Source: Alloascoidea hylecoeti (Eukaryota). Taken from it: a stretch of DNA of 24,811 nucleotides. The stretch covers positions 62,001-86,811 of the forward strand of contig BCKZ01000022.1 of NCBI GenBank assembly GCA_001600815.1, written 5' to 3'. The notes beneath the pieces are model-generated. The model saw only the letters and a list, made by a program, of their open reading frames with translations, made no database searches and was not told the DNA's origin. Of this stretch, positions 6,401 to 24,811 are shown piece after piece. A program made the position numbers and the translations under genes. Every line of letters begins with the position of its first letter. Within the stretch, counting starts at the first letter, position 1.

Positions 6401-6636
6401 ATCGTACTTATAAAAACTCAGAAGATTACTCAAATATCAAAAATAACGACTTTGATGATTTTGAAATAGATGATGATAATAGTAATGATTCAGATAATCT
6501 TATTTCTGAATTTGGTATTGAAGATCCCCTTAATGGCTCAAAAAGACCAAAGGGTACAGCTAGATCAGGCATACTTGGACTTTGGGATAAGATTAGTAAT
6601 AAGTCCAAAGATCCACATTACTATCAACCAATATAG
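3469..6636 (+). CDS. CCC2: Copper-transporting P1B-type ATPase (Ccc2/ATP7 family), ~1055 aa
   Basis: Two GMTCSAC heavy-metal-binding domains, TGES actuator motif, transmembrane ACPCALGLATP, DKTGTLT phosphorylation site, SDHP, GDGINDSPALA, and the YN and MALSS Cu(I) motifs. The ORF track starts at TTG 3463; the first ATG is at 3469. Confidence 0.95.
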   Translation: MLKSTFSITGMTCSACSGAITSALEGTNGVLEVSIGLMTERGLIIHDGKIITVDQVKEAIEDCGFDAELIDSEVAEIHDPASVNGSEMVDDNKSYDQQTETQEQQQTKSTTLKIFGMTCSACSNTVENALNSLDGVESAVVGLAIEEALITYDSSKIGIRDMVSAVEDTGFEVVLKSATDDKVQIESLERTKDIKLWKRRVISSAMLSIPVFIIGHILPMCSVNFIAWEIFPSIFFGDLLSLFLTSIVQFHVGGHFYKSAYKALKHGSATMDLLVSISTLSAYSFSVVSIIYGALKHYTMPPRVLFDTSALLITFITIGKYLENIAKGQVSSALSRLIQLAPSQCTIFTNYNEDIPQSNNNNTKVLSTDLAQVNDIILLLPGSKVPADGYVIYGESYIDESLLTGESKPVQKVKKDNVYGGTVNGSGVLHVKLTKVGTDTQLHKIIKLVNDAQTTKAPIQHFADYIASFFVYGIIILGVLTFFVWSILSSVLNPPPPIFEGTDSNFFICLQLGISVVAVACPCALGLATPTAVMVGTGVGAQQGILIKGGAVLEKANKITCFLFDKTGTLTRGVMSVINQEISIKSGLNLNENDLWVLLGSLESQSDHPIAKAIIKHSRDELGLINDNDNFISTVENVVNIPGGGISADIQLSSNNQTFSVLAGNLEVMKSNNVSMGSDYLSLPQLTQTSSNSNSNPKSSDNIDATIIYLAVNNQYIGKLYLADEIRVDSRSTILNLRRLGYKVMMITGDSKRVASSVASQIGISPHMIISNITPSGKQKIVSDLEAGIWRNSRINPQVVCFVGDGINDSPALATASIGMAVGSGTDIAMAASDIVLAKPDFVLADIVTAVLLSQATFKRIKLNFLWAIVYNVCVLPIAMGILLPWGIVLPPSAAGAAMALSSVSVVASSLWLKRWKKPVLVKNTNSNNSEQENLSMNPCHSNLSSFSLLDDLETGKLSNVSTSSPSSPSSPSSSSTNRTYKNSEDYSNIKNNDFDDFEIDDDNSNDSDNLISEFGIEDPLNGSKRPKGTARSGILGLWDKISNKSKDPHYYQPI

Positions 6637-6963
6637 TTTTCACATTTTTAAGTAAAACTTTAATTTTCTTGAAGTGTCCCATCATCATCGCTTGAAGAAA
6701 ATTTGGGGAAAATAAACTGATACTTTTAAATTTATGGTGTTTTTGTTAATTACGTTCCGGAAAAAAATTTTGATTTATCTATTTTTTGTTTTATTGCCTT
6801 TTTTAATATTGTATTTTTGTATTGTGTTTGTTTATTATTTATTAATATTTAATGTCTATAAATTTTTCTTTCGAATCCATTTTTATCTATTATACATTTC
6901 TGTTTGTTTGCTTGGCAATATTGACACCATAAATGTTATATAACAGTTTACTATATAATAAGA

Positions 6964-6988
6964 ATATATATATATATATATATATATA
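6964..6988. repeat. (AT)n microsatellite, about 12 units, between the convergent 3' ends of CCC2 and YJU3
   Basis: Directly visible atatatat run. TATATA-type elements also serve as yeast 3'-end efficiency elements. Confidence 0.85.
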
Positions 6989-7027
6989 CGTAATCATTAT
7001 TAAATTCTTATAATAATGTAATTAATT

Positions 7028-7933
7028 TTATTCATGTACAAAAGTTTTTGGGTCTTTTAAGAAAGTTTCCAAATCAGAAAATATTGGAAGTCTATATTCA
7101 TCACTTTCCATGTATAAAGAATGATAAGCTCCATCATATTCAAGCAATTTAACATTTTCAAATCCATGTTTATTAAATGCTCTAGACCCTGATATATCAT
7201 TAATTTGATCAGCATTGCTATGTTGGATTAAAACTGGTACTGTTCGTTCAATGTTCTTAGCATATTCAAAATCTAATGCCTTGTATCCGCGTCTAATCAT
7301 ATGATATAATTGTCTCACAGTTCCAACAAATGGAGATAGTTTATCCTCTTTAATTTCTTTTTGTAAACTCATATCGTGAGTAAGTTTTGAAGCATCAAGA
7401 CCGGTAGAAACTTGATAATTAGGTAAAAGTAAAGACCCAAATGGCATTAACATTCTTGAATAACTATTTAGTGTAGCAGGATTAACTATCAAAACTGGAG
7501 CACATACAACAATTCCAGCCAATTCTTTTTTATGCTTTCCAATAATTGAGTAATTGATTACAATACCACCACCCATAGAATGCCCTAGTAAGAATAATTT
7601 CCCAGTAAAATCTTTTGTTTTCTGAACACGTTCAATGAAGAATTCTAAATCATCAAATACATGGAAATCATCTGTAACAGCGATGTCTTTATCTTTGGAA
7701 GTTTCTCCAAATCCCCGTTGATCAAACACAAATAAATTATAACCTTTTGAACAAAAGTAATTGGCAAAAACTTCATAGTTTGTTATATGTTCTGAAAATC
7801 CATGGACAAATAATAAATTTGCTATTGGTGTAACACCTTCTGGAGGGGACCATGATCGAGTATGAAAAAAAGCTTCGTTATATTCAATGATCTCGTCAGT
7901 GTATCTTATATTAGTATTGCTAGTCGCACCCAT
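7028..7933 (-). CDS. YJU3: Monoglyceride lipase / alpha-beta serine hydrolase, 301 aa
   Basis: LLFVHGFSEH, FDQRGFG, nucleophile elbow GHSMGG, putative catalytic Asp (ADQIND) and His (GAYHSL). Length is typical of Yju3/MGL. Confidence 0.88.
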   Translation of the reverse strand: MGATSNTNIRYTDEIIEYNEAFFHTRSWSPPEGVTPIANLLFVHGFSEHITNYEVFANYFCSKGYNLFVFDQRGFGETSKDKDIAVTDDFHVFDDLEFFIERVQKTKDFTGKLFLLGHSMGGGIVINYSIIGKHKKELAGIVVCAPVLIVNPATLNSYSRMLMPFGSLLLPNYQVSTGLDASKLTHDMSLQKEIKEDKLSPFVGTVRQLYHMIRRGYKALDFEYAKNIERTVPVLIQHSNADQINDISGSRAFNKHGFENVKLLEYDGAYHSLYMESDEYRLPIFSDLETFLKDPKTFVHE

Positions 7934-8357
7934 GGTTATTTATAGTTCGAGAAAACTGAGTTTGAATTTGTACACCAATTAGTTGTAATTGAAAGTAATA
8001 GTAAATATAGTCCGATTGACTTATTATATATAAGTTTTATAATCCATATCAGCAGATTATTATTAATGGTTAACGCCCAATAATTAGTAATATGTATGTA
8101 GCATTATTAGCCACATATTATGCCGATTTTATAAACTCAATTGGTATTAAATTCAATATTAATATTGATTAGACGGAAGCTGAAAGATTTCCGACCTCCA
8201 TGTTGCTGTATATTATAAATTATAATAGATGAGATATTTCTCGTTAATTTCGACAATTAAATTTAAAATCCTTCGTTAATAAAGACAAATCTACCATCTT
8301 GGTAATTTTTTGACGGGTGCTTTCTCTATAAATTCATTCTGTATTTATGATCTTTTC

Positions 8358-8636
8358 TCTCAGTTTGAATACCGTCCAGGTACGGAGAAAGATGGGGTCG
8401 TTGTAGCGATTGAGCGAAGAGATCAAGAAATGATTAAAGCCTTAGCTGCAGCTGTGAAAGAAATAACCTTAAGGTGAAACCTGCAGACGCTTAAAACTTA
8501 AAAAGTGTTGATCAAGAATTCCGAGTCTGTCAGTTCTTAAAATATATATAGCCCATCAGGGGTTGGAATATTTGGTTTAATATTCAATATGGTAAAGCAT
8601 TGGTAATCCTGGACGGCCGAGTTGCATAATAATCCG
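8358..8636 (+). pseudogene. Possible highly decayed Ty3/Gypsy pol fragment (RNase H end / integrase start)
   Basis: One frame reads SQFEYRPGTEKDGVVVAIERRDQ, similar to the Gypsy motif F-x-I-x-YRPGK-x-N-x-x-ADALSRR. After several stops the same frame gives ELHNNP, similar to the first His of the integrase HHCC finger. No LTRs seen. Confidence 0.25.
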
Positions 8637-9343
8637 TCAAAATTAAATAAAGAAACACAACAAAGCAATGTGTTCCACGCTTAATCCGATAATGTTATTA
8701 GCACCTATTATTTTACGTAATAAAACGAGATCTTCTTGTTGAACGTGAACCTTCTTGGCATAAGTTGATCTTACAACATTGATGATTAAACGTATACCTG
8801 GGATCTTGATAATCCTAGCTATGAAATTGAAGTACTTTTTCTATTAATATTTTTGCGTATGTCTAGTCTTTTCTCTCGATTGGAATAAAAATTTTATAGC
8901 TCCATTTTCGACAGCTGTTCTAACAAGAGATATTAGATCAGAAGAACAGAAAATAATATCTGAGTTGGTCACAAGGTATGAAAGATAATTGGCATTATTG
9001 TTATAATTGAAAGAATTACGATTATAGGGAAATACTTTTAATCGTGTATGGAATCCATTGGAGGAGTTCGAGTCATGTTAATTCGTGGTAATTGTAGGTC
9101 CGGCCCTGAAAATATTGTGGCCCGAGAATCTGATTTTTTATAATGTTTAAACAAGTCAAACGACCTGAATCGCTGAAATACTGTAGCAAGGCAAAAAGTC
9201 AAATCTGAAATTTCACGTTAGCCTTCTCTTTGCTTCTCATATGTTCTTCCATATCTGATTTTTACTCCATTTGTGAATTAAATGTAGTTTATTCTATTTC
9301 TCCTTTGACTGTCTCGTATGTTGCCTTTTTGTGGCTTTAACTA

Positions 9344-10610
9344 CAGAGTCCCCGCTGATAATTATTCTCTTTTAAGGCCAAAGCATATAATATGAATATA
9401 ATAAAGTTTATGAGATATAAGCTTAAGTGCCATGGTTTTAGTTGCCATTGTAGCTGTGATTGTTATGGTGATCATGAATCCATGATGCCTTTTAGCATAC
9501 CATAATGGCCGCCTTTGGTCATACAGGATCATCGCATTATTTAGTGTCCCCTTCATTCGCTCAGGAGTCAGGAGACCAATCAGCTTTGATGGAGTAGAAT
9601 TAATGGATTCTGTTAACGATAGATTGGCTTATCACCCATCGTTGCACACGCATAACGTTTAACTGCTGTAGTGCGTCCATTACCGTCCAGTCCATGTGTA
9701 GAATAAGTCCGGGAAGGTGTAGTTTGAAACACCAATTTTAACACTCGAGTTTCATATAACTTTCACATTCTTGGATAACATAGAGGGATGATGTTCTCCA
9801 TATTCGCATAAGGTAGATAATTATACTTTGTTAATGTATTAATACTTTTTTTTTACTGTCTGCTTACCAAGCGATTATGGCTCTCTGTTAGCATTTGATG
9901 CATGGATTTAGTACTTGACTCAACACTTTTGTTCTTCCAGATGAAGAGATGGCTTTGATAATACGATTACTTTAACTTTAATTGTAGAAAGATTCCTGAT
10001 GGGCAAGTCAAACCCGAAACGCTGGACTGAAGCCGGTAAAATAAGGATGGGCTCTCAAAAATGTTCTGAAGAAAAAAAAAAAACCATCCCACCCTATAGT
10101 TTGCATCTTCTTCTTGTGTTAGAATTTTAAAGGTAAACCCCCCTCAAATATCGTGAAACAATCCTCCATGTAGAAGTGCCTTTCCTTGACCAAAATTTTG
10201 GCGAAACACAAGATAACCTTCATGCAAGATAATGCTCGTGATCATAAAGCTGGGGCCATCATGCCGTGGTTTAGCTAGAGGAGGAAATTGAAGAGATGGA
10301 GTGACCTGTAATTTTTTTACATATAGTCCAGATCTCAACCTAATTAAGAAGGTGTGGAAAAGAATCATCAGCAAAAATAAACTAAATCTCAATCATAAGA
10401 CTACGGGAAAGCTGAAGCACAAATAAGAACATGGATCAAATTCAGAAATACACTAGAAGGTCTCTCAACAACATAGACCCAAATCTCTTCTACAAAATTA
10501 TCGAATATGCCAAAGATGGTAAAGTATTGATAAGTGACGATGACCATGTGGCAGATAATATTCATCCTAATATGCTGCTGTCCATGAGATAATTAGAGAG
10601 GGGATAGCTG
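9344..10610 (+). mobile_element. Degenerate full-length Tc1/mariner (IS630-Tc1-mariner, DD34/35E-like) DNA transposon, ~1267 bp
   Basis: Broken transposase motifs: FMQDNARDH (10219-10245), IEEME*P (W replaced by stop at 10302), YSPDLNLIKKVW (10322-10357, cf. SPDLNPIENVW) and KYRETILHVEVPF. Imperfect ~55 bp TIRs: left CAGAGTCCCCGCTGATAATTATTCTC...AGCATATAATATGAATAT, right ATATTCATCCTAATATGCT...GAGATAATTAGAGAGGGGATAGCTG. TA flanks both ends (9342-9343, 10611-10612). Confidence 0.85.
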
Positions 10611-11973
10611 TACCTTTCTTTTTCCATATAAAGTATTTTCCTACGTACTGTGATAACATTTGTGTCATCTGTCACCGACTTGATGTCTAAGAGATGGCCA
10701 TGGTAGTATTTGGGTGTACGAATCTTGAATTACTATTCCTGGCCCAATTGCAACCGGTGTTTAAATTGAATACTATTTAAATATAAGTGAGCGTTTAGCA
10801 GCTGGATCTCATGACCGTAAACACTGTGCCATAGCTATACATGTAGTCGTAATTGAAGATTGTGTATCGTACGGGTCATATAGCCCTATATATAATATAA
10901 GTTATAAATGTTATGCATATCAAGACTAGGTGTAATAGATGCGAAAAATATATTAAGCGGCTGGCTCATGTCTTACAATTGCAAACTGATATACAAACTT
11001 ACTCCATAGATGACTATAGCTACAGAAATATTCGCCTCATGCTGTTATTTGGTGATATACAATTTTCTATATTGCAAGTTATAAAGCTGCTTTATAAGTA
11101 TAGCAAAATATTATAATATGTTCAGTGTGTTGTCCTGGTGTTGTATTTAATAAGCATCTGCACTTCCATCCTTGTCCTGAATAAGAAATAATACCTTCTG
11201 CATGGCTAGAAGTAAAGCTAATATAACTTTAAGTTTGTAATTACTAGATTAAAACCGTAGGTTGGAAAAACAAAGACTTTGTTTTAAAATTTAACCCATC
11301 AATTACTAAAAGTAATTTAAATTAAGTGTGTAGACTGAAATTTATGAAATGTCAAGCTGGAAAAATGGTTGAAAGTTTCAGTTGAAATTGAGTATATAAG
11401 GGCGGAGATGGCATAAGTTGCATACTGCTTGCAGTGTTTGGATTTGAAGTCAAATCGTTAGCAGAACCCGCCCTTTCAGTTGACATTAATTTCTCGTGCT
11501 GAATTTAAAGGATATCGATACTCTAGCTGAAAACTATTATATAAAAGCTATAATCATTTAAATAATTGGAGTTGATAAGTTGTGAATAATTGATATCATG
11601 GTGACCTAAACTAAGATTAGTTTCAATTTAGCATAAAATGGAGGATTGACACAATAAATAAATATAGTTTTATATTGACATGTAGCGAGTATCAAAGACA
11701 GAGAGCTTATTAATTAATCACGTCTATACAAGAAGTGTATGTTGCGAACGAATATATTCAATTGATTTATACATTTGTCAATTTATCATCAGATGTGGGG
11801 ATGTAGATAAACGTATACGCAGCAGAGTGTATGCACTTGTCTTAGATGCAAAGTACAGATAGGGTTAACTTTAGATACGATGCCCTAACTAGGTAATTAT
11901 GCAAATGTATTATTGTCCCAAACAGGCATTCAGCCGCACAACGCACATATCTGCGACACAAACTGGCCTCTCG

Positions 11974-12023
11974 ACCAGCCATCAGCAATTAGACTAAACA
12001 CAGAATGCTGGTACACAACCAGC
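11974..12023. promoter_or_regulatory. Cluster of three Ace2/Swi5-type sites (ACCAGC/GCTGGT) upstream of AMN1
   Basis: ACCAGC at 11974-11979, GCTGGT at 12007-12012 and ACCAGC at 12018-12023, 180-230 bp upstream of the AMN1 ATG. AMN1 is a known Ace2 target in S. cerevisiae. Confidence 0.6.
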
Positions 12024-12202
12024 CATTACTTCTATTTCATTATGAAGTTCCCCCAACCTCCCAATTTTTCCTGTAGTTATAATAAAACGGCCAGAATTTC
12101 CTGTTCAATTTTTTAAAATACTTCGTTCCTTTTTAAGTTCCCTATCTTAGTTAATTATTAATATTTCTTTTTGTGTTTTTTTTTGGCTTTTTCATTTTCA
12201 GC

Positions 12203-14299
12203 ATGCAAAATATAAATACATTTCAGCAACCATTACAGTCGGAATACAAAACTACTGGCTATAATTATACGCATTTAAATAGACACATCTCAGAACCAAT
12301 ACAATTAAGAAGACAAAGGTCAAATAAAAGACAACGACATACCGAAAATACAAACTTAAGCAGCATATACAGAATCCCAAGAAGATCAACATCAGGCTCG
12401 TTGAGATCCTCTGGCTTTAAAAGGAAACAACTATTATCATCATTTTTAAATAAGTCAGATCCCACTATTATTGAATCTTCTACAACATCAAGAAGTTCAT
12501 CATCTTCATTAATATCTACTCCTACCAATCAAATATCTTCCTCCTCAGAAAATATATCCAATGCCCCATTTTATGCTACAGGTAGTAATATAAGCAACAA
12601 TGATTTTAATAGCTCGCAATTAAGCACCCCAAATTCTCCTCATACACCTGAAAGAATATACTTGAATACATGCACTAGCTCATCCTCTACCCTTATAAAT
12701 TCAAGCTTACCATCAACTGAATTTTCAACACCAAAAACATCATCTTTTGATATAGATCAGTTTAATACTCCAATATACCAAGACGAGGATTATTCACCAT
12801 CCCCATCTACTCCTTTAGTTAATTCAGCTTTTCAAAAACTTTCTTTAAGTTCGCGATATTCTTCAACTGACACATCACCCGTACATTATGATTATTTCCC
12901 CATTTGTATTAATCAACCAAAGCGAAATAGATCAGTGTCTCATTCGAATTCAACCCTAAAAATTACTCCCCACCATGCATTGCAAATTCCTGAAATTTTA
13001 ACACTAATATTATCATTTGTTGATCAAAATAATAAAGTCCCTTATGAAAAACCATTAATGCGAAGATCACCATATTCATCATTTGGAAATTATACTTCAA
13101 ATGTTAGTTCTAATAATGAGCCTAGACCTCGAGCAGTTTCAGAACAAGCAAACCCCCAATCACAAGCAGTTAAAATCATAAATGGTAAACGATTTAAAAA
13201 CTGTTTCAATCAATACCATGATAAAAACAGTAAAGGTGGATTATTTGATTGTCTTTTAGTTGATAAATTTTGGAATGCAATTGCTCAAGAAATATTACAT
13301 AAAAAAATCTTCTTTGATGATCATGAATCGTGGTCAAGATTTGTTGAGCTGAAGAAAAAGGATACAACTTCAAATTATTGTGACATTGATAAAGATAACG
13401 ATTTTAATGATTTTTCCTCAATAGAATCAGGAAGCGCTACTTCCATTTCTTCTTGCAATTATCTTAGAACTGATGTTTTAATTCTGCATAAGATGACAAA
13501 AGCAACACAAAGTGATTTAGACTCAGTCTCTAGTTTTATTGGTGGTAACCTAAAAAAAATTGAATTTTATATTTGCCCAAGAATTTTACCCACATATGAT
13601 CTAATTAAAGATGGTCAACTAAGACATTTGTCACTACCTGGCAGTAAAGTTGCTAACGATAGATTTTTAGAAATGATTGCAAGAAGATGTCCATTATTGG
13701 AAACTTTAGATTTAAGAGCTTGTAATGAAGTTACAGATAAAGGTATCTTAGCAATTGCTAATAACTGTCATAATCTAAGGTTATTAAATATTGGAAGAAC
13801 ATCTAATGGTAGAGCAATCACTGATGCTTCAATTATAGAAATTGCTCGAAAGACTCAGATCACTACTGTTGGTATTGCTGGTTGTGCCATAACTGATTTA
13901 TCAATTCTAGAGCTTATGAAATATCATCATTTAACACTTGAAAGACTATCACTAAATGGTTGCACAAGACTTACGAATAAGTCAATACCATATATTATAT
14001 CTGAATATGGATTCAATAATGCAACATCACTTAGTGTTCTTGAACTTCGAGATTGTACTAGGATCACAAACTTGAAACCGATTGTAGAATATAAAAGATA
14101 TCGGGAACAGGTTCTTAGATTACCAATTTTAATTGAAATGTGTGAAATTTTACAGAACAGAATGAGAAGGGAAGAATGGGAACTTGATATGGCAATTTCA
14201 AAACAAATTTTTAAAGATTTAGCTGTATTTGTTAATGAGGACGATACTGATATGCCATTTCAAACACTATTCACTAATCCTAATCATTCAATTAATTAA
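12203..14299 (+). CDS. AMN1: Antagonist of mitotic exit network 1 (atypical F-box / LRR protein), ~698 aa
   Basis: Blocks matching recalled Amn1: HALQIPEIL, GGLFDCLLVDKFW, LILHKM-TQSDL, IEFYICPRI, LDLRACNEVTDKG, NIGR..G..IT, TVGIAGC, LERLSLNGC, PILIEMCE, KDLAVFVNEDD. Long Ser/Thr-rich N-terminus. First ATG is at 12203 (the track used GTG 12173). Confidence 0.93.
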   Translation: MQNINTFQQPLQSEYKTTGYNYTHLNRHISEPIQLRRQRSNKRQRHTENTNLSSIYRIPRRSTSGSLRSSGFKRKQLLSSFLNKSDPTIIESSTTSRSSSSSLISTPTNQISSSSENISNAPFYATGSNISNNDFNSSQLSTPNSPHTPERIYLNTCTSSSSTLINSSLPSTEFSTPKTSSFDIDQFNTPIYQDEDYSPSPSTPLVNSAFQKLSLSSRYSSTDTSPVHYDYFPICINQPKRNRSVSHSNSTLKITPHHALQIPEILTLILSFVDQNNKVPYEKPLMRRSPYSSFGNYTSNVSSNNEPRPRAVSEQANPQSQAVKIINGKRFKNCFNQYHDKNSKGGLFDCLLVDKFWNAIAQEILHKKIFFDDHESWSRFVELKKKDTTSNYCDIDKDNDFNDFSSIESGSATSISSCNYLRTDVLILHKMTKATQSDLDSVSSFIGGNLKKIEFYICPRILPTYDLIKDGQLRHLSLPGSKVANDRFLEMIARRCPLLETLDLRACNEVTDKGILAIANNCHNLRLLNIGRTSNGRAITDASIIEIARKTQITTVGIAGCAITDLSILELMKYHHLTLERLSLNGCTRLTNKSIPYIISEYGFNNATSLSVLELRDCTRITNLKPIVEYKRYREQVLRLPILIEMCEILQNRMRREEWELDMAISKQIFKDLAVFVNEDDTDMPFQTLFTNPNHSIN

Positions 14300-16859
14300 T
14301 ATAATGCCTATATGATTATATAGAACACTTTGCATTTTTGTTTGTTTTTTGTTTTATTTTGATTGTGTATATTACTAATGCATATGAAATAGATGAATTT
14401 TACTTTTCTACCATTTAAATATCAATTGCAACAGTGGCCATCTTGAACTCATATACACTGTACAATATTATAAATTGAGGAATTCGCTATCAATGCTCTT
14501 AAGTACGTATTGTTTCGAAAATACAATAAAATTTAACAACGTTAATTAGGACATATTGAATCACGTTTCATATACATTGGCAGTGATTGACAAAATTATG
14601 GAGTTGTATCGACTTCATTAAGGTACCTATGATGCATTAATGCAACGTCATTTGAAACTGAAGGTTAATATTAATGACACGAACTTGTAAGGATTGAATG
14701 TATGACAATATGAGTTTGAAGGTGCAGCTAGAGAGGTTAACCGGAATTAAATTTTGAAATGCACACTTCCATAGTTTGGGTAGGTACCTCAAAGCTAATT
14801 CTGAACGGCTAGGCCCCTATAATGGCATTCTGTCTATTTTTGTTTAAAAGGAGCATTTTGTTAAAATTCTTCATCTGCTGATTATAATTATAAATGCAAA
14901 ATATTCAGTAAAACGACCAAGTAGTGCAAGAATACAAAATGAAATCATTTCATAGGCTCCATAATTCATCCAAAATACAAAATGCAATAGCCAAGTGTGT
15001 AATATTAATATTGACACATGATAAAGTGGCCGTTCGTGCATTTTGAACGCCGTAAATTTTGTCTTATATGGGGGAAAATAAGAAAGAGCGAATTGTCTAA
15101 TGAAGATAATGTATTTTTATTCGAATGTATTTCGCTATAAACCCAACTAGTTTTACTTTGCATAGAATTCATGAACTGCTGCTGACCTTATCCTAGTATC
15201 AATATTTAGCGTAATTAATGTTATAATTATATTCTGCGTTTTGAAATGAATTGTTATGAGATGAATCCGCCATTTTGGTATTCTCGTTCGGTTAACATGA
15301 TTTATTAAATAGATTCAGATATCGATACTTGTACGCTGGAGTACCATCTATTTGTTCTTTCAACCCAAATAACCTCTGTATGGATTGCATGGTTTCAATT
15401 ACGTTTTAAGCAGTTTTCCATATGTTTGGTTTGTATATTGGGTTAGGAAGATCAAAGAATTCTCAATTTGGACATTTTTCCGGCCAATCAATATACAGTT
15501 CTACTCAGAACTCGCCATAATTGAGGGATATCTTCGTCATTTTCGTTTGGGTCTTTTCGGAAAATTGGATATCGAAAATCGGTTATACCTGGGTGACAAA
15601 CTCTTTGTTTTGCGATTTGGCGTTAATTTATTTAGTCATAGCTTGAAATACATTTGGTCCCCTCTAAATTCGACACATGTCCAAATTTTGTTTCACCATT
15701 TCTTGATATATCTAGTTCGTTATTTCAGCAAGAAATATTTCGTCGCGCAGTGTCAATATATTTCGTTTTCGATTATTACGTTATCTGTAGTAGGAGGAAA
15801 GTTGACCTCTATCAGCACTAGCCTCACGCTCATTACAATATATGGTAGGCTCTTGAAAATGATCTTGATAATTAATATTTGTCGGAGTCATAACTACTAA
15901 TTGTGATCACACACATCAGAAAATAATACACATATTCAGTTGTACCATATATAAGCTAATTATCATACAGTTACAAGAATATGTAATCGTATATTTAATG
16001 TGTCTAACTATAATATCAACACAATTTATTACCAAGAGTTCCGCTCATTAAGAAAACCTCCCCTCATGATCATCGATGACATGATGACATGATCAGCAGC
16101 AGGTATGCTATTTCACCTTCGAATTTTCGTGTATAACAAACAACCCACAAGCCGTTCTTCCGGTTGTCGTTAAATTCTTTTGCAAAATTACAAGATCTCA
16201 AACAATATAGTTATAGAGAATTCGAATGATAATGAGTCTGAGCAGTTATCCCAGTTCCACTCATACATATGGCCATTTTTTCTTAGTTGCCCCTCATCGA
16301 TTAGTGTTAAATATATCATTCTTTTGAGTTCATGATCAATTACATTTTTTTGTCATAAAAGACTAATCAGACTGAATCAGACTAATATTGATGCTGACTT
16401 CTTATAATCAAACTATAACTATGAAGACATGATTTTTTATTTCGAGTCTTTCGACGTACGTGTTAATTACAACCAATCTTCATGTGTTCGAAAGTTCACA
16501 AGATTGCAAGAATAGAAACCATTATATAAGCATTATATAGCTTTAAATGCCTTATTCATATCAAATATATACATATACCGGTACATAGCTATATAGAACT
16601 ATATAAGTTTTAAGTTTTTGCAATGATGTTATATAGTATATATTTTATACCTACAATATCATATTATATAAAGACATATTTAACCATATAGCCCTTTGAA
16701 ATTAATAGCTATAGTTATAAGATCTTATATTTAACTAACTATAATAATGGTCACAGCATATCTAGTCCCGACAATGATAATACTTAACCTTAAGTTTTCA
16801 CATTTTAGATATGTCGATCGCGATATTATTCAAAGGTCATCTTTATGGCATGTTGTATA

Positions 16860-17026
16860 CACTTAATTTCGGCCCACAGTTTGAATTAAATATTCATTTA
16901 GGTGGCCGAATCTCAGTATATTGTATGGTCGAATATTTAGCGAATATCTAATCCACTTAGCCGATAATTATTTACCTTTATATGTGCATTGCCGAATATT
17001 GTTAAAACAGCGGCCGAAGTTAAGTG
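16860..17026. mobile_element. MITE-like non-autonomous element, 167 bp, with TIRs and TA flanks
   Basis: Left TA|CACTTAATTTCGGCC and right GGCCGAAGTTAAGTG|TA match 14/15. Similarity continues imperfectly to ~35 bp, ending in AATATTC. Internal repeats resemble GCCGAAT. No coding capacity. Confidence 0.7.
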
Positions 17027-17950
17027 TATATATACTGCGTATATTATTGGCATCGACTGATCGAGAACAATATTGTTAATTGAATTTAAATAAAAAAACG
17101 AAAACTTTTTTTAAAATTTAAAAGTAAACAATAATAATTTGGTTTACGACTTTTCTTTAAAATGTCATTACAATTGTAATTTAATATTATAAGCTTAGGA
17201 GCATGGTACAACATGTATCTTAAAGATGGATATAAATAATTATAAATACTAACAAGCCAAATTTTAATGAAAAACAATTGGCGTTTTATATAAAAACTGA
17301 TATTAAATTTAAGAGAAAAATCAATGCAGAAATATATTACGAAAAGCAGAAAAACAACTTCAAATGTTAAAGAAACAGACAGAATATATGCAATATCAAT
17401 TTTAACATGAATTGATAAAAAAATATAATAATAAAAGTACTTAATCATGATTTAAGGAGATATAATGACCACGATATGCATATGATAGGACGAATCTCGC
17501 TTCTAATCTTAAAATAAAAGGAGATCTCAAACTATAGGGAGTAATTTAAATAAATGATGAAAAATAATAAGCCACAATTCCAATATTCCAATCGCAACAC
17601 AAAATCAAGCCATAATCAAAGTCATCGTAATTGATGGAAATAATTCTTTTAGCCTTTAATTTCTGTGGGCCGGAGAATGTCAATTATAATTGTAGGTTCT
17701 AGATCTTTCGTCTCATCAACCTTAAAGTCGTTACAACATTGATTAATTGAAATTGAAAGTTAATTTAATCAAAGTCAAAAACCGAAGTCAAATTTCCATT
17801 ACAAACGCGAAACGCCAACATTTAAACAAGAACAAAATTATAAACATAAAAAAGAAGATTGATCGAAAAGAGGGTAGAGGCAATAAATCATAAGCTTTAG
17901 AACTAGTTCATACATGATATTTTTCATCATAAGTAAATTTAAAGCTCTTC

Positions 17951-19768
17951 TTAATAAAGAAGTAGAAGTACAATTGAAATTGCAAGTGCGATGATTGTAT
18001 AACATTCGATATATCCAGTTATTGAAGAATCCATAAAACCCAATCTCATTCCAGGTTTCGATTCCGATTCGGATAAATCATCTTGTTTGATTGCTAATGA
18101 TGAATTATTTTGATCATTTAATTTATAAATAGATTTTTCATTTTCATTTTCATTTTCATCGTCATTTTCATCTTCGCCGGATGTCTCGAATTCGGTTGTT
18201 AGTGTAATTGAATCATTTAAAGTTCTATTTTGTGTTTGTGTTACATCATTTTCATTATTGCTTTCATTTAATGACATTAAAAGTTCTTCTTCTAGGGAAT
18301 GTTCTATTAAATCAAAATTCTCAAATAGTTCTTCATTAGTGAAAGCTACAGGTATTATTGAATCTAAAATTAAGCTGTTAACATCTTCTTCATAACTTAA
18401 TTGGTTTAATTCATCCTGGTCACTTGATACATTGTCCATATTCATATCTTTCTCATCGCCACTAATAAAATTATCATCACAGACAATTAAACTCAATAAA
18501 CTATCATTAGAGTTAGATATTAAGCTAAAAGTTGATGATTTGTGATTCAGATTTGGATTTATATTCGAATCAAAATCGTCAAATCTTGATTTGCTTTGAA
18601 ATGATTGTAAATTTAAATTATTCATAGAATTCTTTTTACCTAATTTTCGTAATAGATTTAAACATTTATCAGATTTTTTACTAAAATTATTGATTTTAGT
18701 TTTGTTATAATTATTATTGAATTTATCAATTTTTGATATATTTTTAACAATTTTAAATTCTTTTGTTATATCTAAAATTTGTTTTGATAATAAATTTAGT
18801 CTTTCTGTATAACTGTTATTTTTTAATGTTATCATATCAATAATTGAATTATCAAAATTGTTTTCATCTGTGATTGATTTGATACTTTTAGATAATCTTT
18901 TTATATGCTTATTATTCTCGGTATCACTTAATGATAGGCTTAATGATGAGTTCTGTAATTCATATTGCATGCGACTTATACTACGGCGAGTATTATTATC
19001 AGGAGTGATAGGGTTAAATGGTGTTAAATTTGAAGGTAAACGCGTAATTTTGTTATTTCCTTTGTTATTATCGAATTCATTTTCAAAGTTTATTAAATTT
19101 AAGTCTATTGTCGAAGAATTTGAAGAAGAAGGCTGTAATGGAGTATCAAATAAACTGGATAATCTGTGAGAAGTGTTGGTGCTGCACGTTAACGGAGTAC
19201 CAGTAGAAGCATCATCTAAAGAAAATATATCCGATGCATAAGAGGAAAACCTTCGTGACTGAGTATCAAAACTTGAATTACTATTTCTACCTGACGTGTC
19301 AGGAGTCCTAATAACTGGTCTAGCTCTTGTATTAATAGATAGGGACCGGGGTCTAGGAGGAGATATTACTTCACGGCGGTTTAAATCTTCAGGTGGTTTA
19401 TCATTAGTACTAGTGAAAGTACTGATAACAGCTCCACTCATCTGTTCGAACAAAAGAATAAACTCTTCTTTCGTCAGCTCAAGATTACTGTGACTGTTAA
19501 TGAAGTTCTTCGCCTGTGACTTTGCTTGTTTATCAAGTAAAGTATTTGCAGAAAGGCCAAGGCGGGACTCTAACATTTCTACAAGAATAATGAAGTCTGT
19601 GCATTTTATCTAGGCAAGAGTTTAGTTTCAATGACACAGGCCAGGCAGAAAGAAAAATATAAAGAAAACAAAGAGCAAACAACATACACTTCCTTTACCA
19701 TTTTTATCAAGATTAGTCCAAGAGTTATCTATGAAATTGGTCGATGCAGTTTCGTTTAAAATGTCCAT
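17951..19768 (-). CDS. Spliced gene (exons 19768-19688 and 19609-17951), ~579 aa; Mps2/Kms-like nuclear-envelope/SPB protein with N-terminal EF-hand-like domain and C-terminal TM anchor
   Basis: The spliced N-terminus MDILNETASTNFIDNSWTNLDKNGKGS|IKCTDFIILVEMLE...AKNFINSHSNLELTKEEFILLFEQMSG forms an EF-hand-like loop across the junction. It resembles recalled Mps2 (AW..ID....FIYGKDL..LI / F......FKIHKEEF...F). A coiled-coil-like middle is followed by a single hydrophobic C-terminal helix (YTIIALAISIVLLLLY*). The gene structure is more certain than the family call. Confidence 0.72.
19610..19687 (-). other. Spliceosomal intron, 78 nt, phase 0
   Basis: GTATGT donor (19687-19682), AACTAAAC branch-like motif (19627-19620) and CCTAG acceptor. 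It contains in-frame stops, and removing it joins an upstream ATG exon in frame with the long ORF. Confidence 0.85.
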
Positions 19769-19891
19769 TTGAAATTTAAATAGCTCGCGGTTGAAAAGAG
19801 TTTTACAATAAGGTTAAGAGATTTTCCACTTACTATTATTGACCGTAAAAGTCACGTACGCGCCTAATTTTTAATATTTCCAGAATTGGCA

Positions 19892-19930
19892 CGAGCCCGA
19901 AACCGAGCCCGAAACCGAAACCGAAACCGG
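19892..19930. repeat. Hexamer tandem array CGAGCC/CGAAAC x6 in the divergent promoter
   Basis: CGAGCC CGAAAC CGAGCC CGAAAC CGAAAC CGAAAC CGG, read directly; a GC-rich island in the 516 bp spacer between the two start codons. Confidence 0.8.
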
Positions 19931-20284
19931 AGACGTGTTTGCATTCGCCCGTACATTCCTCTAAAAATATATTTCATGTCATGTTCACCTTAACTATAAA
20001 ATTATAATAAACGAGGTAAAACCTAATTCCGGATTGAGGATATGTGACGATATTTTGCGATGTGTTAATTGAGACAAAGTGTAACGGTTTCTGTCGAAAC
20101 ACGACCGCACGCATGGGCTTCTAGATCGTCGGGGCCACTATATAATAGTATTATTTCAATTGCTCAACACTTTATAATATAATATTCCCTCTTTTTCCTC
20201 TTTCCTTTTTCTTTAACTCTCCTAATTTTGCTTTGAATTTTTTCTTGTTTCTTGCTTTGTTTTTGCTTTATCCCATTGATAATT

Positions 20285-21961
20285 ATGGCAACTATGTATG
20301 TTGATCCCTTGAGTTTAAGCTTAAGTGTATATTACTTGCGTACACTCTTTTTTTCCTTATGTTACAACTACGCCCGGCCTCGGTACTAAACATTTTTTCC
20401 CCTTAGGAATCATAATAGCACCTCGACGACGAGTCATATCCCCATAAGAAGTTCTCCACTCGCAAAAAACAAGCCAATAACGTCCCCCAGAAAGTCCGGT
20501 AAATCTAAAGGGTCCACTTCTTCAAGGCCATCTCGTACAAGCACTGCATGTCACAGCGCATCTTCTAGTCGACATGGAAGTTCGGTAGCTATTGGACTTA
20601 AATCCCCAATACTGACAAGTACGAAACAACAACGAAGATCTTCACAACTAGATCAGATCGACAATTCAAACTTAACTTTTTTCCCAATTATTCCCTCGTT
20701 TCAAAATTTAGAGTCATTAACTTCTGATGACCATGAGGCTATTGGTAATGATTCTGGACTCGACAAAAAAAATCAAATTAAAGAATCTAATAACTACCCT
20801 CCAACTTCCCCTATTGGGTCATGTTATACATGTTTTAGTAGTTTTAATAATTCCTTTAATTTTGGTCCAAAAACATTAGATGATGACAACAATTCTTCCT
20901 TTGGTAGCTTAAATAATGATGTTTTACATTTAGACAAGATTATAAATGATAATGGTGTTATCATTTCGATTATGTGTGATACAGTTGTGCTCATTGAGGA
21001 TTATATAAGTACTGGCAAAAATGAACCAAAAGTCGAAGAAAATAGCGTATTACAAACTGAAATTCCAAGAATTAACATTAATGACATCAATAACGAAAAT
21101 AATCAAAATATTCATAGTATTGATGATGATGAATCAAGAAATAATTCAATAATTTCAACTAGTACTGCTTCTTCAAGAACTTCTCAGTCTTCGATATCTT
21201 CGAATTCTTCAATTGGTAGTACTTCGTATAATGAGATTGATTCGATTTTAACGATGAATAAATTAAAGCAACATATGAAAATGCCCCAATCACAATTGCA
21301 ACAGAATGCAACATCACAGACTACTATTAATACATTACAATACAGCACATATAAATCGTGTATCATTTGTTCAAGATCATTAATGGAAATAACATGCGAT
21401 GATTATTTCTTAAATGATATATTTTTTCATAAAATAGTTTGTCAAGATTGTATACCAAAATATGATGATTATGTGAAAGTTTTAGAATATTCTGAACTCA
21501 TCGCTTCATATGATGAAAACAATGAAATTAAAAACAAAAAAGTGAAGAAAAGTTTACAGAAAAGCTTAAGAAGATCTAGTGCTATTCCATTAGTTGCTAC
21601 TAATTATAAAGATAAGTCATCACCATCATCGGATACCTCTTCCTGTTCTTCTCGTCGTTCATCTATATCATTATTATCAACTGAAACGATATCGCCGCTT
21701 TATCGTTCTACAAAATCATCATCAAACATAGGACAACTAATTACAAATAGTAATAATATTATTGACAATGATGACACTCAATACACAAGTTTGAATAATA
21801 GACAGTTCCCATTATTCTCAAACGGTTTATTATCGAGGTTAAGAACGCTAGAAGAAAAACCATCATTCAAATCATTACAACAACAATTTGTATCTGATAA
21901 AAAAAAGTTATCATTATTTGAAAATCTTAAAGGGTCATTGAGCGTTAAATTTAAATGGTGA
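20285..21961 (+). CDS. Spliced gene (exons 20285-20295 and 20407-21961), ~521 aa; Ser-rich protein with a C4 zinc-finger-like domain, similar to S. cerevisiae YLR049C
   Basis: The frame of ORF 20972 stays open upstream to the acceptor at 20406; splicing gives MATM|NHNSTSTTSHIPIRSSPL... The blocks YKSCIICSRSLMEI..FHKIVCQDCIPKYDD, FSNGLLSRL and terminal KFKW resemble recalled YLR049C blocks (FKKCVICEKALYEF..FQEIVCENC..YEE, FSMELISRL, RWKW). Confidence 0.75.
20296..20406 (+). other. Spliceosomal intron, 111 nt, phase 2
   Basis: GTATGT donor at 20296, TACTAAAC at 20384-20391, then a pyrimidine tract and TTAG acceptor ending at 20406. Retention hits an in-frame TAA at 20387; removal restores a continuous ORF. 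Confidence 0.85.
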
Positions 21962-22956
21962 TTCTAGGAATTGATAATGGTATGTTCTGAGTTTACTTGT
22001 TCACACATGATCATTGATTGAATTTACTTCGCCAATGTTGTGAATTCAAACTAACAATTAAGATTCAACAATTCAATCCACACAATAAATTCTCACACCA
22101 CCATATCATATGGCTGCCACATGTGTTATATCATAATCATACTTAGCTACTAGCGATTTTAATTTTTTTCGCCTTCAAATTTATATTATGGGTTCCGGAA
22201 ATCATTATCTCCCTTGTTTGGATTTATTTAATTTTTTAAAGTTTAAAATTCGATAGAGTTTTCCTTCTATCCATGGTCACTACACTACTCTAGATCTGGA
22301 GGTGTCTTCCCCCCACCCTCTATATGTATGAGATTTCTATATCCCGGTTATTTCCTTTGATCTTGTCATCTTTTTTTTTCCTTTCTATTATTTGTTCAAT
22401 AAATTAATGAATTTTTTTTTTTTCATTTTCCTTTTTCAAAGTTTTTTTTTTTTGATAAAATACACAAAACATACACATAAAACATTTATTTTCCTTCTTT
22501 TTTTGTTGCCTTTAATTTTCTCTTTCATCTTTTGGTTAAGTGTTTACAAGGTTGAATTTCTTAGTTCCATATATATATTTAAATGTATATACCAATAAGG
22601 GTTTTTTTGTTATTCTACATATTTCATATTTCGTTTTTCATATTTCTTAATTTCATTTCGGTTCTATTTTTTATTTATTTATTTTAATGTGTAACTGATA
22701 TGAAAATGACTAGGTATATTCATGAAAATAAAAGTAGTATATACAATTTGGGTTTTTTTTATAAATAATCTTTCTCTTCTTCTTTACTGTCTTTTGTTCA
22801 CGAAAGTGTTAATAATTGAGGAATTCTTACCATTCATTCATTTATTTTTTAATGTCTTCTTTTTTCTAGTTTTTAAACTGATGGTTACATACTTATATTC
22901 TTTGCTATGTTTTACTGAGGGACAAATGAGGGTATAATTAGTTATGAGGTTATGGT

Positions 22957-22989
22957 GGGTCTGGTTTGGTTTGGTTTGGGTTTGGGTTT
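22957..22989. repeat. (GGTTT/GGGTTT)n short microsatellite
   Basis: gggtctggtttggtttggtttgggtttgggttt read directly. Confidence 0.6.
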
Positions 22990-23802
22990 CCTAATATTAT
23001 TTAAGTTTTAATTAGTTATATTAGATGTCGGATAATCAACTCATGACATTATAATTAGATTTTGTATTTACTTCTAATAGACTTCTATTATATGTATAAG
23101 ATGTTATAAGACTTTAGACTACTGATGTTACAGGTAGCCGCCAGTATATTGATAATCAATATTAATTATGATTGTACATGTAATTCCCCATCCACTATTA
23201 TAATTTAGTATTGTTATAATTATTATATTATTTTTAATTGATTTCAGCTAATTGCTAATTAGTAATTAATAATGATAAGTGGGAAAGACAACATTATATC
23301 CAATATTAATAATTATAATGAAAAAGCTTCACTGTTAAAGTGACTGATACAGTGTTTTTCTGAGTGTTACTATTGGAAAGACATATTATTATAGATCGCA
23401 AATTGTTGGTAAAATTTCAAGCACGATTGTCCTTTTTCCGCTTTGAATTGATGTTGTTCCCTGGCGTGAGCGATGGTTGAATTAAGGCAATTAAGTCTTA
23501 CACGTCGCGTGCTTTATGATATAAATTATCGGTGTCTTTGAAGGGTATACGTAGATCACAGGTTAGCATAGTTGCTGATGGATTTTTTTTTTTTTTTATA
23601 TTTATAAAAGAATCACTGATACATAATTATAAATACAATTCAATTGGCTATACGGGGGCTGATTAAGAAGGACAGATATAAAAGTTAACGCTACTAGTTA
23701 CTAGTAGTTGTAACTTTATTTATTTTATATAAGGAGTGAGTTCCCATAAATTTTCCTTCTAACTTTTTCAGCTTCACGCCAAATATACAGTCTTTGGACG
23801 CG

Positions 23803-24811
23803 ATGTCAATGCTTCGAAGAAAATCCCTGAAGCTGGTGATGTATGCTTCAGCCGCTTTCGTTTTGTGCCTGGTATTCCTCGCAATACCTAGCACAAGTCA
23901 CAAGGTATTTGTTGTAGTTGAAGATACAAAAGTTCTACAAGGTGTCGCCAAATCACAAAATGTCCTGAATATAAATCTTTTTAATAAGAATTCAATCACA
24001 AAAGAAAATTTTTATTTTGATATATTTACGACTTTTTTTAACTTTCGCCCAAAAATAGCACCGTTAAAAGATTATTCACAAAATTACGGACATGCACCAA
24101 CAGAACGGTTAAACCACAACAGTCCAATGACCGAGAAGTTTCTTGAGCGGTTTCTTCAAATAAACCAAACGGAAATTGATTCATTATCACAGTCATTACG
24201 CGATATAAATAACACTATTCCGTCTGCTCCACCACCAAATCTCTATGAAGAAGGTAATGGAATAGTTTATGTAGGAGGTGGGAAATATAGCTGGCTTACT
24301 CTTGTTTCTATTAAAACTTTACGGTCCTATGGTTCTAAATTACCAATAGAAGTCTTAATACCAACACTCGATGAAGAATCAAAAATATTATGTCATGAGA
24401 TCTTTCCTTCTTTAAACGCAACCTGTTTAANTCTTCCTGAAATTATTGGTGCTAAAACTACTACTCTAATAAAACCAGAAGATATGACCTTTCAATATAA
24501 GCCGTTATCAATTCTTTTATCATCATTTGAAAATGTTTTATACTTGGATTCTGATAATATTCCAGTAAGGAATTTAGATTACTTATTTGAAAGTAAGCCA
24601 TTTACTCTTACAAATTTCATTACATGGCCTGATTTTTGGAGAAGAACAATGCATCCATCATTTTTAAAAATGATGAATATTCCTATTTCGAATCAAACTA
24701 CTATTTTGAACCCTTCAACAAAAGAAAGAATAGATTTGAGTCTTATTGATAGAATCCCCAATTTATCAGATCCATCAACTGAATCTGGTCAAATTATGAT
24801 TTCTAAGAAGA
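23803..24811 (+). CDS. Alpha-1,2-mannosyltransferase, GT71 Mnn2/Mnn5 family; 3' end runs off the window
   Basis: Open frame from ATG 23803 to the window end. Type II anchor MSMLRRKSLKLVMYASAAFVLCLVFLAI, then GNGIVYVGGGKYSWL, GSKLPIEVLIP, FQYKPLSILLSSFENVLYLDSDNIP (DxD), WPDFWRRT and DPSTESGQIMISKK. One N base at 24431. Absent from the ORF track because it has no stop inside the window. MNN2 versus MNN5 cannot be resolved. Confidence 0.92.
   Translation, partial: MSMLRRKSLKLVMYASAAFVLCLVFLAIPSTSHKVFVVVEDTKVLQGVAKSQNVLNINLFNKNSITKENFYFDIFTTFFNFRPKIAPLKDYSQNYGHAPTERLNHNSPMTEKFLERFLQINQTEIDSLSQSLRDINNTIPSAPPPNLYEEGNGIVYVGGGKYSWLTLVSIKTLRSYGSKLPIEVLIPTLDEESKILCHEIFPSLNATCLXLPEIIGAKTTTLIKPEDMTFQYKPLSILLSSFENVLYLDSDNIPVRNLDYLFESKPFTLTNFITWPDFWRRTMHPSFLKMMNIPISNQTTILNPSTKERIDLSLIDRIPNLSDPSTESGQIMISKK

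What the first reader, a model, noticed from the sequence alone, without database searches (positions are those of the whole stretch)
19610..20406. Both introns of a divergent gene pair share a GC-rich GCCYGGCCT element just upstream of the branch-like site
Seen: the minus-strand intron has GCCTGGCCT-GTGT (19646-19638 for the 9-mer), 10 nt before AACTAAAC. The plus-strand intron has GCCCGGCCT-CGGT (20372-20380), 3 nt before TACTAAAC. Both motifs are in the sense orientation in otherwise T-rich introns, and both donors read T|GTATGTTG. An 8/9 GC-rich match at equivalent positions in two short introns of unrelated genes is surprising in such AT-rich DNA. Established: yeast intronic enhancers that control weak introns exist (the Mer1/Nam8 system acting through AYACCCUY). 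Inference: this could be an undescribed splicing enhancer or silencer, or a trans-RNA pairing site, that co-regulates a cell-cycle or meiotic gene set at the splicing level. Alternatively it is a DNA-level factor site flanking the shared promoter, or chance (n=2).
Basis: partly seen in the sequence, partly recalled or inferred. Interest (0 to 1): 0.75.

Follow-up and report, generated by a model that had tools for sequence, protein, structure and literature searches.

The report
Three look-alike introns in one neighbourhood
Two neighbouring yeast genes, and probably a third 8 kb away, carry introns that share the same rare start, GC-rich block and weak branch signal, which looks like an intron copied locally long ago and possibly kept as a private splicing control, not the genome-wide regulator first proposed.

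Summary
Observation confirmed to the base. Both introns are needed to build their proteins; intron A sits at the same codon as an intron in a paralog. The 9-mer match alone is modest (17 of 7750 intron pairs; 1-2% of composition-kept shuffles). It is not a genome-wide element: no enrichment behind donors or before branch sites, none in DMC1-like or paralog introns, no complement in U1/U2. (1) The likeness is collinear and runs into the upstream exon (three-block score 41.9; maximum 32.8 of 7750 pairs). (2) The motif-free pattern T|GTATGTTG...ACTAAAC...YAG occurs three times in 24.8 Mb, all in this window; the third, upstream of AMN1, also carries CTGGCCT (about 1e-5 by chance, 1e-4 after allowing for hindsight). 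Best reading: old local copying of gene A's first intron, with the blocks kept as a private weak-branch splicing signature (0.35) or as a neutral fossil (0.27). Splicing, orthologs and function are untested. The scan noted intron copying between neighbouring genes before, in other genomes.

The parts
19688..19768 (-). Gene A exon 1 (27 codons)
   Evidence: aligns across the junction with paralog L181, 36% over 83 aa, E 4e-13
19610..19687 (-). Intron A, 78 nt, phase 0, GTATGTTG...ACTAAAC...CTAG
   Evidence: retention gives stops; paralog has a 68-nt intron at the same codon
17951..19609 (-). Gene A exon 2; 579-aa protein with degenerate EF-hand-like loop across the junction (by inspection) and C-terminal hydrophobic helix 561-579; KASH/Kms-like by lead only
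   Evidence: Atlas KASH5-like cluster 0.80 (below the 0.9 line); no Pfam hit
19695..19710 (-). Exon-flank block of A, 13/16 identical to the flank of B at nearly the same distance from the donor
19656..19675 (-). U-rich tract of A, alike to the tract of B in register with the GC block
19638..19646 (-). GC block GCCTGGCCT
19620..19626 (-). Non-canonical branch-like site ACTAAAC of A
   Evidence: canonical sites here are RCTAAC
19769..20284 (.). Shared divergent promoter/5' UTRs; 12-nt tandem repeat at 19889-19929; TATA-like sites 19995, 20139
20276..20295 (+). Exon-flank block (20276-20291) and exon 1 (20285-20295, ATG GCA ACT AT) of gene B
20296..20406 (+). Intron B, 111 nt, phase 2, GTATGTTG...ACTAAAC...TTAG
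   Evidence: exon-2 residues 80-97 match the distant homolog P0003 (2 of 2000 shuffles) upstream of the first exon-2 Met at 193
20345..20363 (+). U-rich tract of B
20372..20380 (+). GC block GCCCGGCCT
20385..20391 (+). Non-canonical branch-like site ACTAAAC of B
20407..21961 (+). Gene B exon 2; 521-aa Ser-rich protein with a CxxC...CxxC cluster; no named family
   Evidence: Atlas cluster EC1118_1B15_2938p 0.86 (lead only)
11732..11744 (+). Element C donor-like 13-mer GAAGT|GTATGTTG, identical to gene A's junction
   Evidence: 4 matches in the genome, 2 of them A and C
11737..12003 (+). Element C: putative 267-nt 5' UTR intron of AMN1 (splicing not shown; may be promoter DNA)
11963..11969 (+). 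GC block of C, CTGGCCT (7 of 9)
11993..12003 (+). ACTAAAC and CAG of C
12203..14299 (+). AMN1-like LRR gene downstream of element C
   Evidence: hits named 'antagonist of mitotic exit network protein 1', E 5e-74, 36% identity

Best explanation
A small local family of U2-type intron modules. Gene A's old first intron, with the end of its exon, was copied in DNA to the 5' end of the divergent gene B (inverted, 0.6 kb away) and probably to the 5' leader of AMN1 (8 kb away). Spacers have since drifted in sequence and length while four blocks stayed: T|GUAUGUUG, a YGGCCU-centred GC block, the weak branch ACUAAAC and YAG. Proposed working: the off-consensus branch pairs imperfectly with U2 and slows splicing; the GC block just upstream is a site for a protein that tunes branch recognition, so the three genes share a private splicing setting. 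Shown: both coding introns are required, A's position is old, the blocks are collinear, the trio is unique in the genome. Inferred: copying, its direction A to B/C, that C is spliced, weak splicing, and any function of the GC block.
For: Collinear three-block score (exon flank + best interior block + tract) 41.9 against a maximum of 32.8-33.7 in 7750 pairs, 0 of 7750 at three offsets; without motif, donor and branch, the anchored segments still score above 9998 of 10000 shuffles; flank alone 16 of 7750, tract 47 of 4753. Pattern without the GC block: 3 matches in the genome, all here (control 3), 3 of 8 when relaxed (control 23), and 2 of 2 outside matches inspected lack YGGCC. YGGCCT..ACTAAAC..YAG: 6 in the genome, 3 here, the other 3 without a GTAHGT donor within 400 nt. 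Chance expectation for the full third element in this window 7e-6. Tool counts agree with a local rescan of 983 kb. Spacers differ in all three (36/71/219, 11/4/23, 10/15/4 nt). Intron A position and a non-C base after ACTAA are shared with the paralog. Low-copy intron duplication is known in fungi (PMC3609843, passages).
Against: Whole-region alignment is only 3-28 of 7750 pairs and 30-215 of 5000 shuffles; the anchored tests were designed after seeing the match; the downstream exon shows nothing (2171 of 7750); C shares only the core blocks (flank 2185 of 7750) and lies over what looks like AMN1 promoter DNA (three ACCAGC sites, a CC(N)6GG site; consensus names recalled), with no in-frame upstream ATG and two upstream ATGs left in its leader. 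ACTAAAC works without any GC block in three housekeeping introns (GPN GTPase, mitochondrial carrier, cullin), and YGGCCT occurs in canonical-branch introns of VPS13 and a septin-like gene, so neither needs the other. No shared fold. The null set of 125 introns is predicted, short (median 66 nt) and chosen on canonical branches.
Confidence: 0.35

Rival explanations
1. Same local copying, but the GC block is a neutral fossil: only donor, ACTAA and YAG are under selection, and the block is the best-surviving stretch of a decayed duplicate (helped by GC-biased conversion near promoters).
For: All descent evidence above. At about 63% identity over the A/B alignment an 8/9 block is expected somewhere. 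ACTAAAC introns elsewhere need no GC block. No enrichment anywhere else in the genome.
Against: Element C keeps exactly the blocks that A and B share while its spacers are unalignable; neutral decay would keep that same block only by luck (my estimate 1-5%).
Confidence: 0.27
2. Chance: unrelated introns in a GC-richer promoter-proximal zone with relaxed splice signals, picked out by hindsight from a very large scan; C is promoter DNA that happens to match.
For: Motif p only 0.2-2%; a block of equal strength links B to the paralog intron; 81 inverted pairs of 10 nt or more lie in the 1.5 kb around the promoter, the longest of them non-collinear; local GC 0.35-0.47 against 0.27 in introns; earlier notes report GC peaks at promoters in this genome.
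Confidence: 0.15
3. The block is a DNA site for a transcription factor, for example a Skn7 oxidative-stress element, placed symmetrically about the divergent promoter.
For: A and B both match GGCNNGGC on the antisense strand, a Skn7 element as quoted in PMC3705287 (passage); background 0.06 per kb. CCCGGCCTC also lies just upstream of the TATA of the U2 variant.
Against: C does not match it; the sites lie 87-130 nt downstream of the start codons; it does not explain the shared donor, branch and exon flank.
Confidence: 0.12
4. One reading: a trans-acting splicing enhancer/silencer or RNA pairing site shared, without common descent, by a cell-cycle or meiotic gene set.
For: The three genes are plausibly cell-cycle genes (AMN1 named; KASH-like and Ybr138C-like are leads only). 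GTATGTTG..YGGCCT..CTRA gives 11 matches against 2 in the control; 8 lie outside the trio and were not inspected.
Against: No enrichment in four other genome-wide counts; absent from DMC1-like and paralog introns; candidates followed up were coding, intergenic or antisense; no snRNA complement shared by A and B; members are clustered within 8.7 kb, which a diffusible factor does not predict.
Confidence: 0.08

Closest known systems
Low-copy introns (LCI) and segmental same-gene intron duplications of fungi (PMC3609843, passages read)
   Same: A few copies in unrelated genes, ordinary length and folding energy; likeness that runs into the exon as in segmental duplications.
   Different: LCIs are near-identical and found by BlastN; these copies are far diverged (the own-genome DNA search returns only the locus itself), differ threefold in length and keep blocks, not overall identity.
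Mer1/Nam8 meiotic splicing regulon of S. cerevisiae (PMC3082912, passages read)
   Same: Short intronic element between donor and branch in introns with a weak signal; PCH2 has a consensus donor, U-rich tracts and a non-consensus branch, like A and B.
   Different: No AYACCCUY; donors are consensus; the block is branch-proximal, not within 25 nt of the donor; not found in DMC1-like introns.
Mmi1 decay-promoting introns of S. pombe (PMC4695336, passages read)
   Same: Intronic A-rich hexamer near-match overlapping a weak branch; the genome has three YTH-domain genes.
   Different: TNAAAC occurs only in A (TGAAAC); CTAAAC is not TNAAAC.
Skn7 oxidative-stress response element (PMC3705287, one passage read)
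   Same: A and B match GGCNNGGC.
   Different: Known elements are in promoters; C does not match.

Membership tests
U2-type spliceosomal intron (A, B) | GT donor, branch-like site, YAG, removal restores the reading frame | tested here: met
U2-type spliceosomal intron (A, B, C) | Junction seen in RNA | not testable with these tools
   no RNA data covering the locus was obtained
U2-type spliceosomal intron (C) | Interrupts a reading frame or a known transcript | tested here: inconclusive
   no in-frame upstream ATG with any of 8 acceptors; could only be a 5' UTR intron
Low-copy duplicated introns (LCI) | Near-identical sequence found by BlastN | tested here: not met
   single hit, the locus itself; alignment about 63% with gaps
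Low-copy duplicated introns (LCI) | Few copies in unrelated genes, ordinary length and stability | tested here: met
   (z 1.11 and 0.04)
Low-copy duplicated introns (LCI) | Copy absent from orthologs (gain) | not testable with these tools
   no ortholog DNA reached
Introner-like elements | Many copies, long, stable fold | tested here: not met
Mer1/Nam8 regulon | AYACCCUY enhancer within 25 nt of the donor | tested here: not met
   (A and B)
Mer1/Nam8 regulon | Non-consensus 5' splice site | tested here: not met
   GTATGT is the commonest donor, 61 of 127
Mer1/Nam8 regulon | Splicing depends on a meiotic factor | not testable with these tools
   needs experiments
Mmi1 decay-promoting introns | TNAAAC in the intron | tested here: not met
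   1 of 3
Skn7 element | GGCNNGGC-type sequence | tested here: inconclusive
   2 of 3 match; binding untested
snRNA pairing site | Complement in U1 or U2 | tested here: not met
   U4, U5, U6 not examined
KASH protein (gene A) | C-terminal membrane anchor, N-terminal EF-hand-like domain, SUN binding | tested here: inconclusive
   anchor met; Atlas 0.80 lead; no Pfam hit; binding untested

The most novel reading that the evidence does not exclude
A locus-private splicing code: a weak ACUAAAC branch with a GGCCU block was spread by local intron copying to three cell-division genes (AMN1, a KASH-like nuclear-envelope gene and a Ybr138C-like gene) and now co-regulates them through an undescribed RNA-binding factor, so that intron copying built a small splicing regulon.
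Probability: 0.2. Interest if true: 0.8.

Novelty: new variant of a known kind. Interest (0 to 1): 0.45.

Why it matters
Source sequences of gained introns are rarely found (2 of 62 gains in fission yeasts, PMC3629103 passages), so an old locally copied intron with a datable donor gene is a useful case. If the blocks are functional, it would be a branch-proximal intronic element in a budding yeast, unlike the donor-proximal Mer1 enhancer, and would show intron copying as a way to wire neighbouring genes into one splicing control. If not, it is a caution on how far motif matches between neighbouring introns can reflect descent and not regulation.

Tried and rejected
RNA: no RNA holder listed; three metatranscriptome runs laid on 4800-24700 gave only short, low-complexity pieces and no joints; neither says anything on expression. 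Ortholog DNA: two metagenome scans found nothing; protein searches reached only a second strain's near-identical proteins (P0001, P0002) and one distant homolog of B (P0003), without DNA. Further family members: L063 and L184 are coding, L191 intergenic and L192 antisense to a gene, L004 (leader of a CDC42-like gene) has GTATGT 33 nt before GCCTGGCCT but no branch+AG nearby. snRNA pairing: block A forms a strong predicted duplex with the 3' part of U2 (0 and 2 of 300 shuffles) but block B does not (116 and 173 of 300) and it would need the 3' stem-loops opened; rejected. The U2 variant's GUAGUG does not fit ACUAAAC better. Shared RNA fold: none. No Rfam family in the window apart from one weak snoRNA match at E 0.43. 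Transposon ends: no large repeats. Two automatic reconstructions of the DMC1-like gene failed; the 8 introns counted come from a simple pattern, one of them upstream of the matched part, and the gene holds more by eye. Solved-structure search of the paralog's N-terminal part: no hit. Literature searches listed no paper on this element; one search found 0 papers with UACUAAAC, intron and branch point. No supplements were read; those of PMC4479816 and PMC13309789 list branch motifs and may bear on how rare ACTAAAC is.
Full report
Setting. The window is G000:C22:62001-86811 of a 24.8-Mb, AT-rich fungal genome. Its usual introns are short, GTAWGT...RCTAAC...YAG: 476 matches against 171 in the reversed control.

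1. The observation. Every coordinate holds. Intron A (19687..19610, 78 nt) joins a 27-codon exon to a 552-codon exon; intron B (20296..20406, 111 nt) joins ATG GCA ACT AT to a long exon; retention gives stops in both. Intron A is supported by a paralog (L181) that aligns across the junction (36% over 83 aa, E 4e-13) and has a 68-nt intron at the same codon. Intron B is supported because residues 80-97 match the distant homolog P0003 (2 of 2000 shuffles) upstream of the first exon-2 methionine at 193. Splicing itself is inferred, not seen.

The genes. A: 579 aa, hydrophobic helix at 561-579, degenerate EF-hand-like loop made by the junction (inspection), Atlas lead to a KASH5-like cluster at 0.80: KASH/Kms-like as a lead only. 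B: 521 aa, Ser-rich, CxxC...CxxC, Atlas lead 0.86 to a cluster named EC1118_1B15_2938p; that this is the YBR138C family is my recall and was not tested. Ybr138C is a cell-cycle-regulated APC/C-Cdh1 substrate (PMC3458821, passages).

How surprising is the 9-mer? I built 125 predicted introns from 964 kb of loci; the set is short (median 66 nt) and was chosen on canonical branches. The A/B block scores 16.6 bits: reached by 17 of 7750 pairs, 3 of 7750 within 25 nt of the branch, 4 of 378 GC-rich pairs, and 225-391 of 20000 composition-keeping shuffles. A block of 16.1 bits joins intron B to the paralog's intron (18 of 7750). So one block is suggestive only. The shared branch ACTAAAC is atypical: donor...ACTAAAC...AG gives 10 vs 16, 20 vs 60 and 21 vs 66 against controls. 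It is nevertheless used, with no GGCC, in three frame-restoring introns of housekeeping genes (PF03029, PF00153, PF00888). The reversed controls differ in word frequency and are rough yardsticks.

2. Not a genome-wide element. GCCYGGCCT occurs 45 times (control 25). Of the first 30 inspected, 11 lie in ORFs, several are copies of a repeat, and none has both a donor within 160 nt and a branch+AG within 60 nt; 13 further sites outside the pair were not inspected. Motif + ACTAA + AG occurs only in A and B. Relaxed counts show no excess: 130 vs 195, 21 vs 34, 33 vs 31, 44 vs 87. One count does: GTATGTTG..YGGCCT..CTRA 11 vs 2, of which 3 are in this window and 8 were not inspected. The paralog's intron has a weak donor (GTTAGT) and weak branch (ACTAAGC) but no GC block; 0 of 8 pattern-predicted introns at the DMC1-like locus hold GGCC. 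YGGCCT sits in canonical-branch introns of VPS13 and a septin-like gene (septin name by inspection). U1, U2 and a second, diverged U2 copy hold no complement shared by A and B. The introns have no unusual or shared fold.

A and B also share a 13/16 block in the upstream exon at nearly the same distance from the donor and a U-rich tract in register with the GC block. Anchored tests: flank 16 of 7750 pairs and 6 of 10000 shuffles; tract 47 of 4753 and 144 of 10000; downstream exon nothing (2171 of 7750); the three together, without motif, donor and branch, 2 of 10000. Treating all pairs alike, flank + best block + tract sums to 41.9 for A/B against maxima of 32.8-33.7, 0 of 7750 and 0 of 903 long pairs (Gumbel tail 0.001-0.003). 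Free local alignment is less clear: 3-28 of 7750 pairs, 30-215 of 5000 shuffles. The anchored tests were designed after I saw the match, and low-complexity inverted matches are common here (81 pairs in 1.5 kb).

Part two: a third element. The pattern TGTATGTTG N20-300 ACTAAAC N1-16 YAG, which leaves out the GC block, has 3 matches in the whole genome (control 3), all in this window: A, B and C at 11736-12003. C carries CTGGCCT 23 nt before its ACTAAAC and shares the 13-mer GAAGTGTATGTTG with A, which occurs 4 times in the genome. YGGCCT..ACTAAAC..YAG has 6 matches, 3 of them here; the other three lack a donor. Relaxing the donor gives 8 matches, 3 here. Expected by chance: 1.5 per genome and 0.0015 per window for the motif-free pattern, 7e-6 per window with YGGCCT, 2.5 times more in GC-rich tiles; I allow a further factor for hindsight and use about 1e-4. 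A local rescan of 983 kb agreed with the tool's counts. C lies 200 nt upstream of an AMN1 homolog. It can only be a 5' UTR intron; a TATA-like site lies 190 nt upstream of it, but the stretch also holds three ACCAGC sites and a CC(N)6GG site that look like AMN1 promoter elements (consensus recalled). Outside the core blocks C resembles neither A nor B.

3. How it most likely works. Clustering within 8.7 kb, likeness that enters the exon, and the old position of intron A point to DNA-level local copying from A (inferred; about 0.6 in all). Reverse splicing would copy the intron only, and a diffusible factor does not predict clustering. Fixed blocks with spacers of 36/71/219, 11/4/23 and 10/15/4 nt are what selection on the blocks would leave, so I put slightly more weight on a working element (0.35) than on a fossil (0.27): an off-consensus branch that slows U2 engagement, with the GC block just upstream as a protein site that tunes it. 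That non-consensus branches lower splicing is established in S. cerevisiae and Y. lipolytica (PMC3082912, PMC13309789, passages); the rest is inference. Chance 0.15, DNA factor site 0.12 (A and B match the Skn7 element quoted in PMC3705287; C does not), dispersed regulon 0.08.

4. Comparison. It works most like fungal low-copy or segmental intron duplications (PMC3609843) but fails their near-identity test. It is not a Mer1 target (no AYACCCUY, consensus donors), though its layout resembles the Nam8-dependent PCH2 intron. It is not an Mmi1-type decay intron (TNAAAC in 1 of 3; PMC4695336). Papers were seen as search listings and as passages; none was read whole.

5. Novelty and verdict. New variant of a known kind. 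Observation confirmed; interpretation partly supported, with its genome-wide and snRNA parts rejected. Interest 0.45: a real and unexplained local trio, with a one-in-five chance of a new private splicing code, held back by the lack of RNA and ortholog data.

Noticed in passing
L178:1501-1682 (G000:C1:1673373-1673554 +): Second, diverged U2 snRNA copy (64.3 bits, above cut-off): TATA, Sm site and stem IIb kept, stem-loop IIa deleted, GUAGUA changed to GUAGUG. Already noted by the scan (e1-7784043). CCCGGCCTC lies just upstream of its TATA.
   Followed up: partly
L181 (G000:C3:26906-30076 -): Paralog of gene A, 565 aa, coiled-coil-like middle, membrane helix at 477-495 and a luminal-type tail; its intron has a GTTAGT donor and ACTAAGC branch and shares a 12-nt block with intron B.
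   Followed up: partly
L183 (G000:C4:749150-750750 +): DMC1-like gene cut by about ten short AT-rich introns with many weak signals (GTATAT, GTAACA, GTAAGA donors; ATTAAT branches; AAG acceptors).
   Followed up: partly
L004:985-1542 (-): Probable long 5' UTR intron (or two) of a CDC42-like gene with GCCTGGCCT 33 nt behind a GTATGT donor and a U-rich tract; canonical branch far downstream.
   Followed up: partly
window 19889-19929: Three and a half copies of a 12-nt GC-rich unit in the middle of the divergent promoter.
   Followed up: no
G000 C41:34791, C1:1520985, C17:456252: Three YTH-domain genes; one might be Mmi1-like in a genome reported to hold Mei2. Sequences not examined.
   Followed up: no
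G000 C3:1120505, C3:1338251, C3:1422339, C3:1458255, C5:1156057, C9:939429, C9:946119, C14:444884, C38:90289: A dispersed repeat whose copies begin TGTATGTTG and share a stretch about 25 nt further on; element C does not show that stretch.
   Followed up: no
window 7934-12202: 4.3 kb without an ATG-started ORF of 80 codons between the lipase-like gene and AMN1; holds an isolated intron-like stretch at 8857-8936.
   Followed up: no
window 21980-22062 (+): Canonical intron-like stretch (GTATGT...ACTAAC...AAG) just behind gene B's stop codon, possibly a 3' UTR intron.
   Followed up: no
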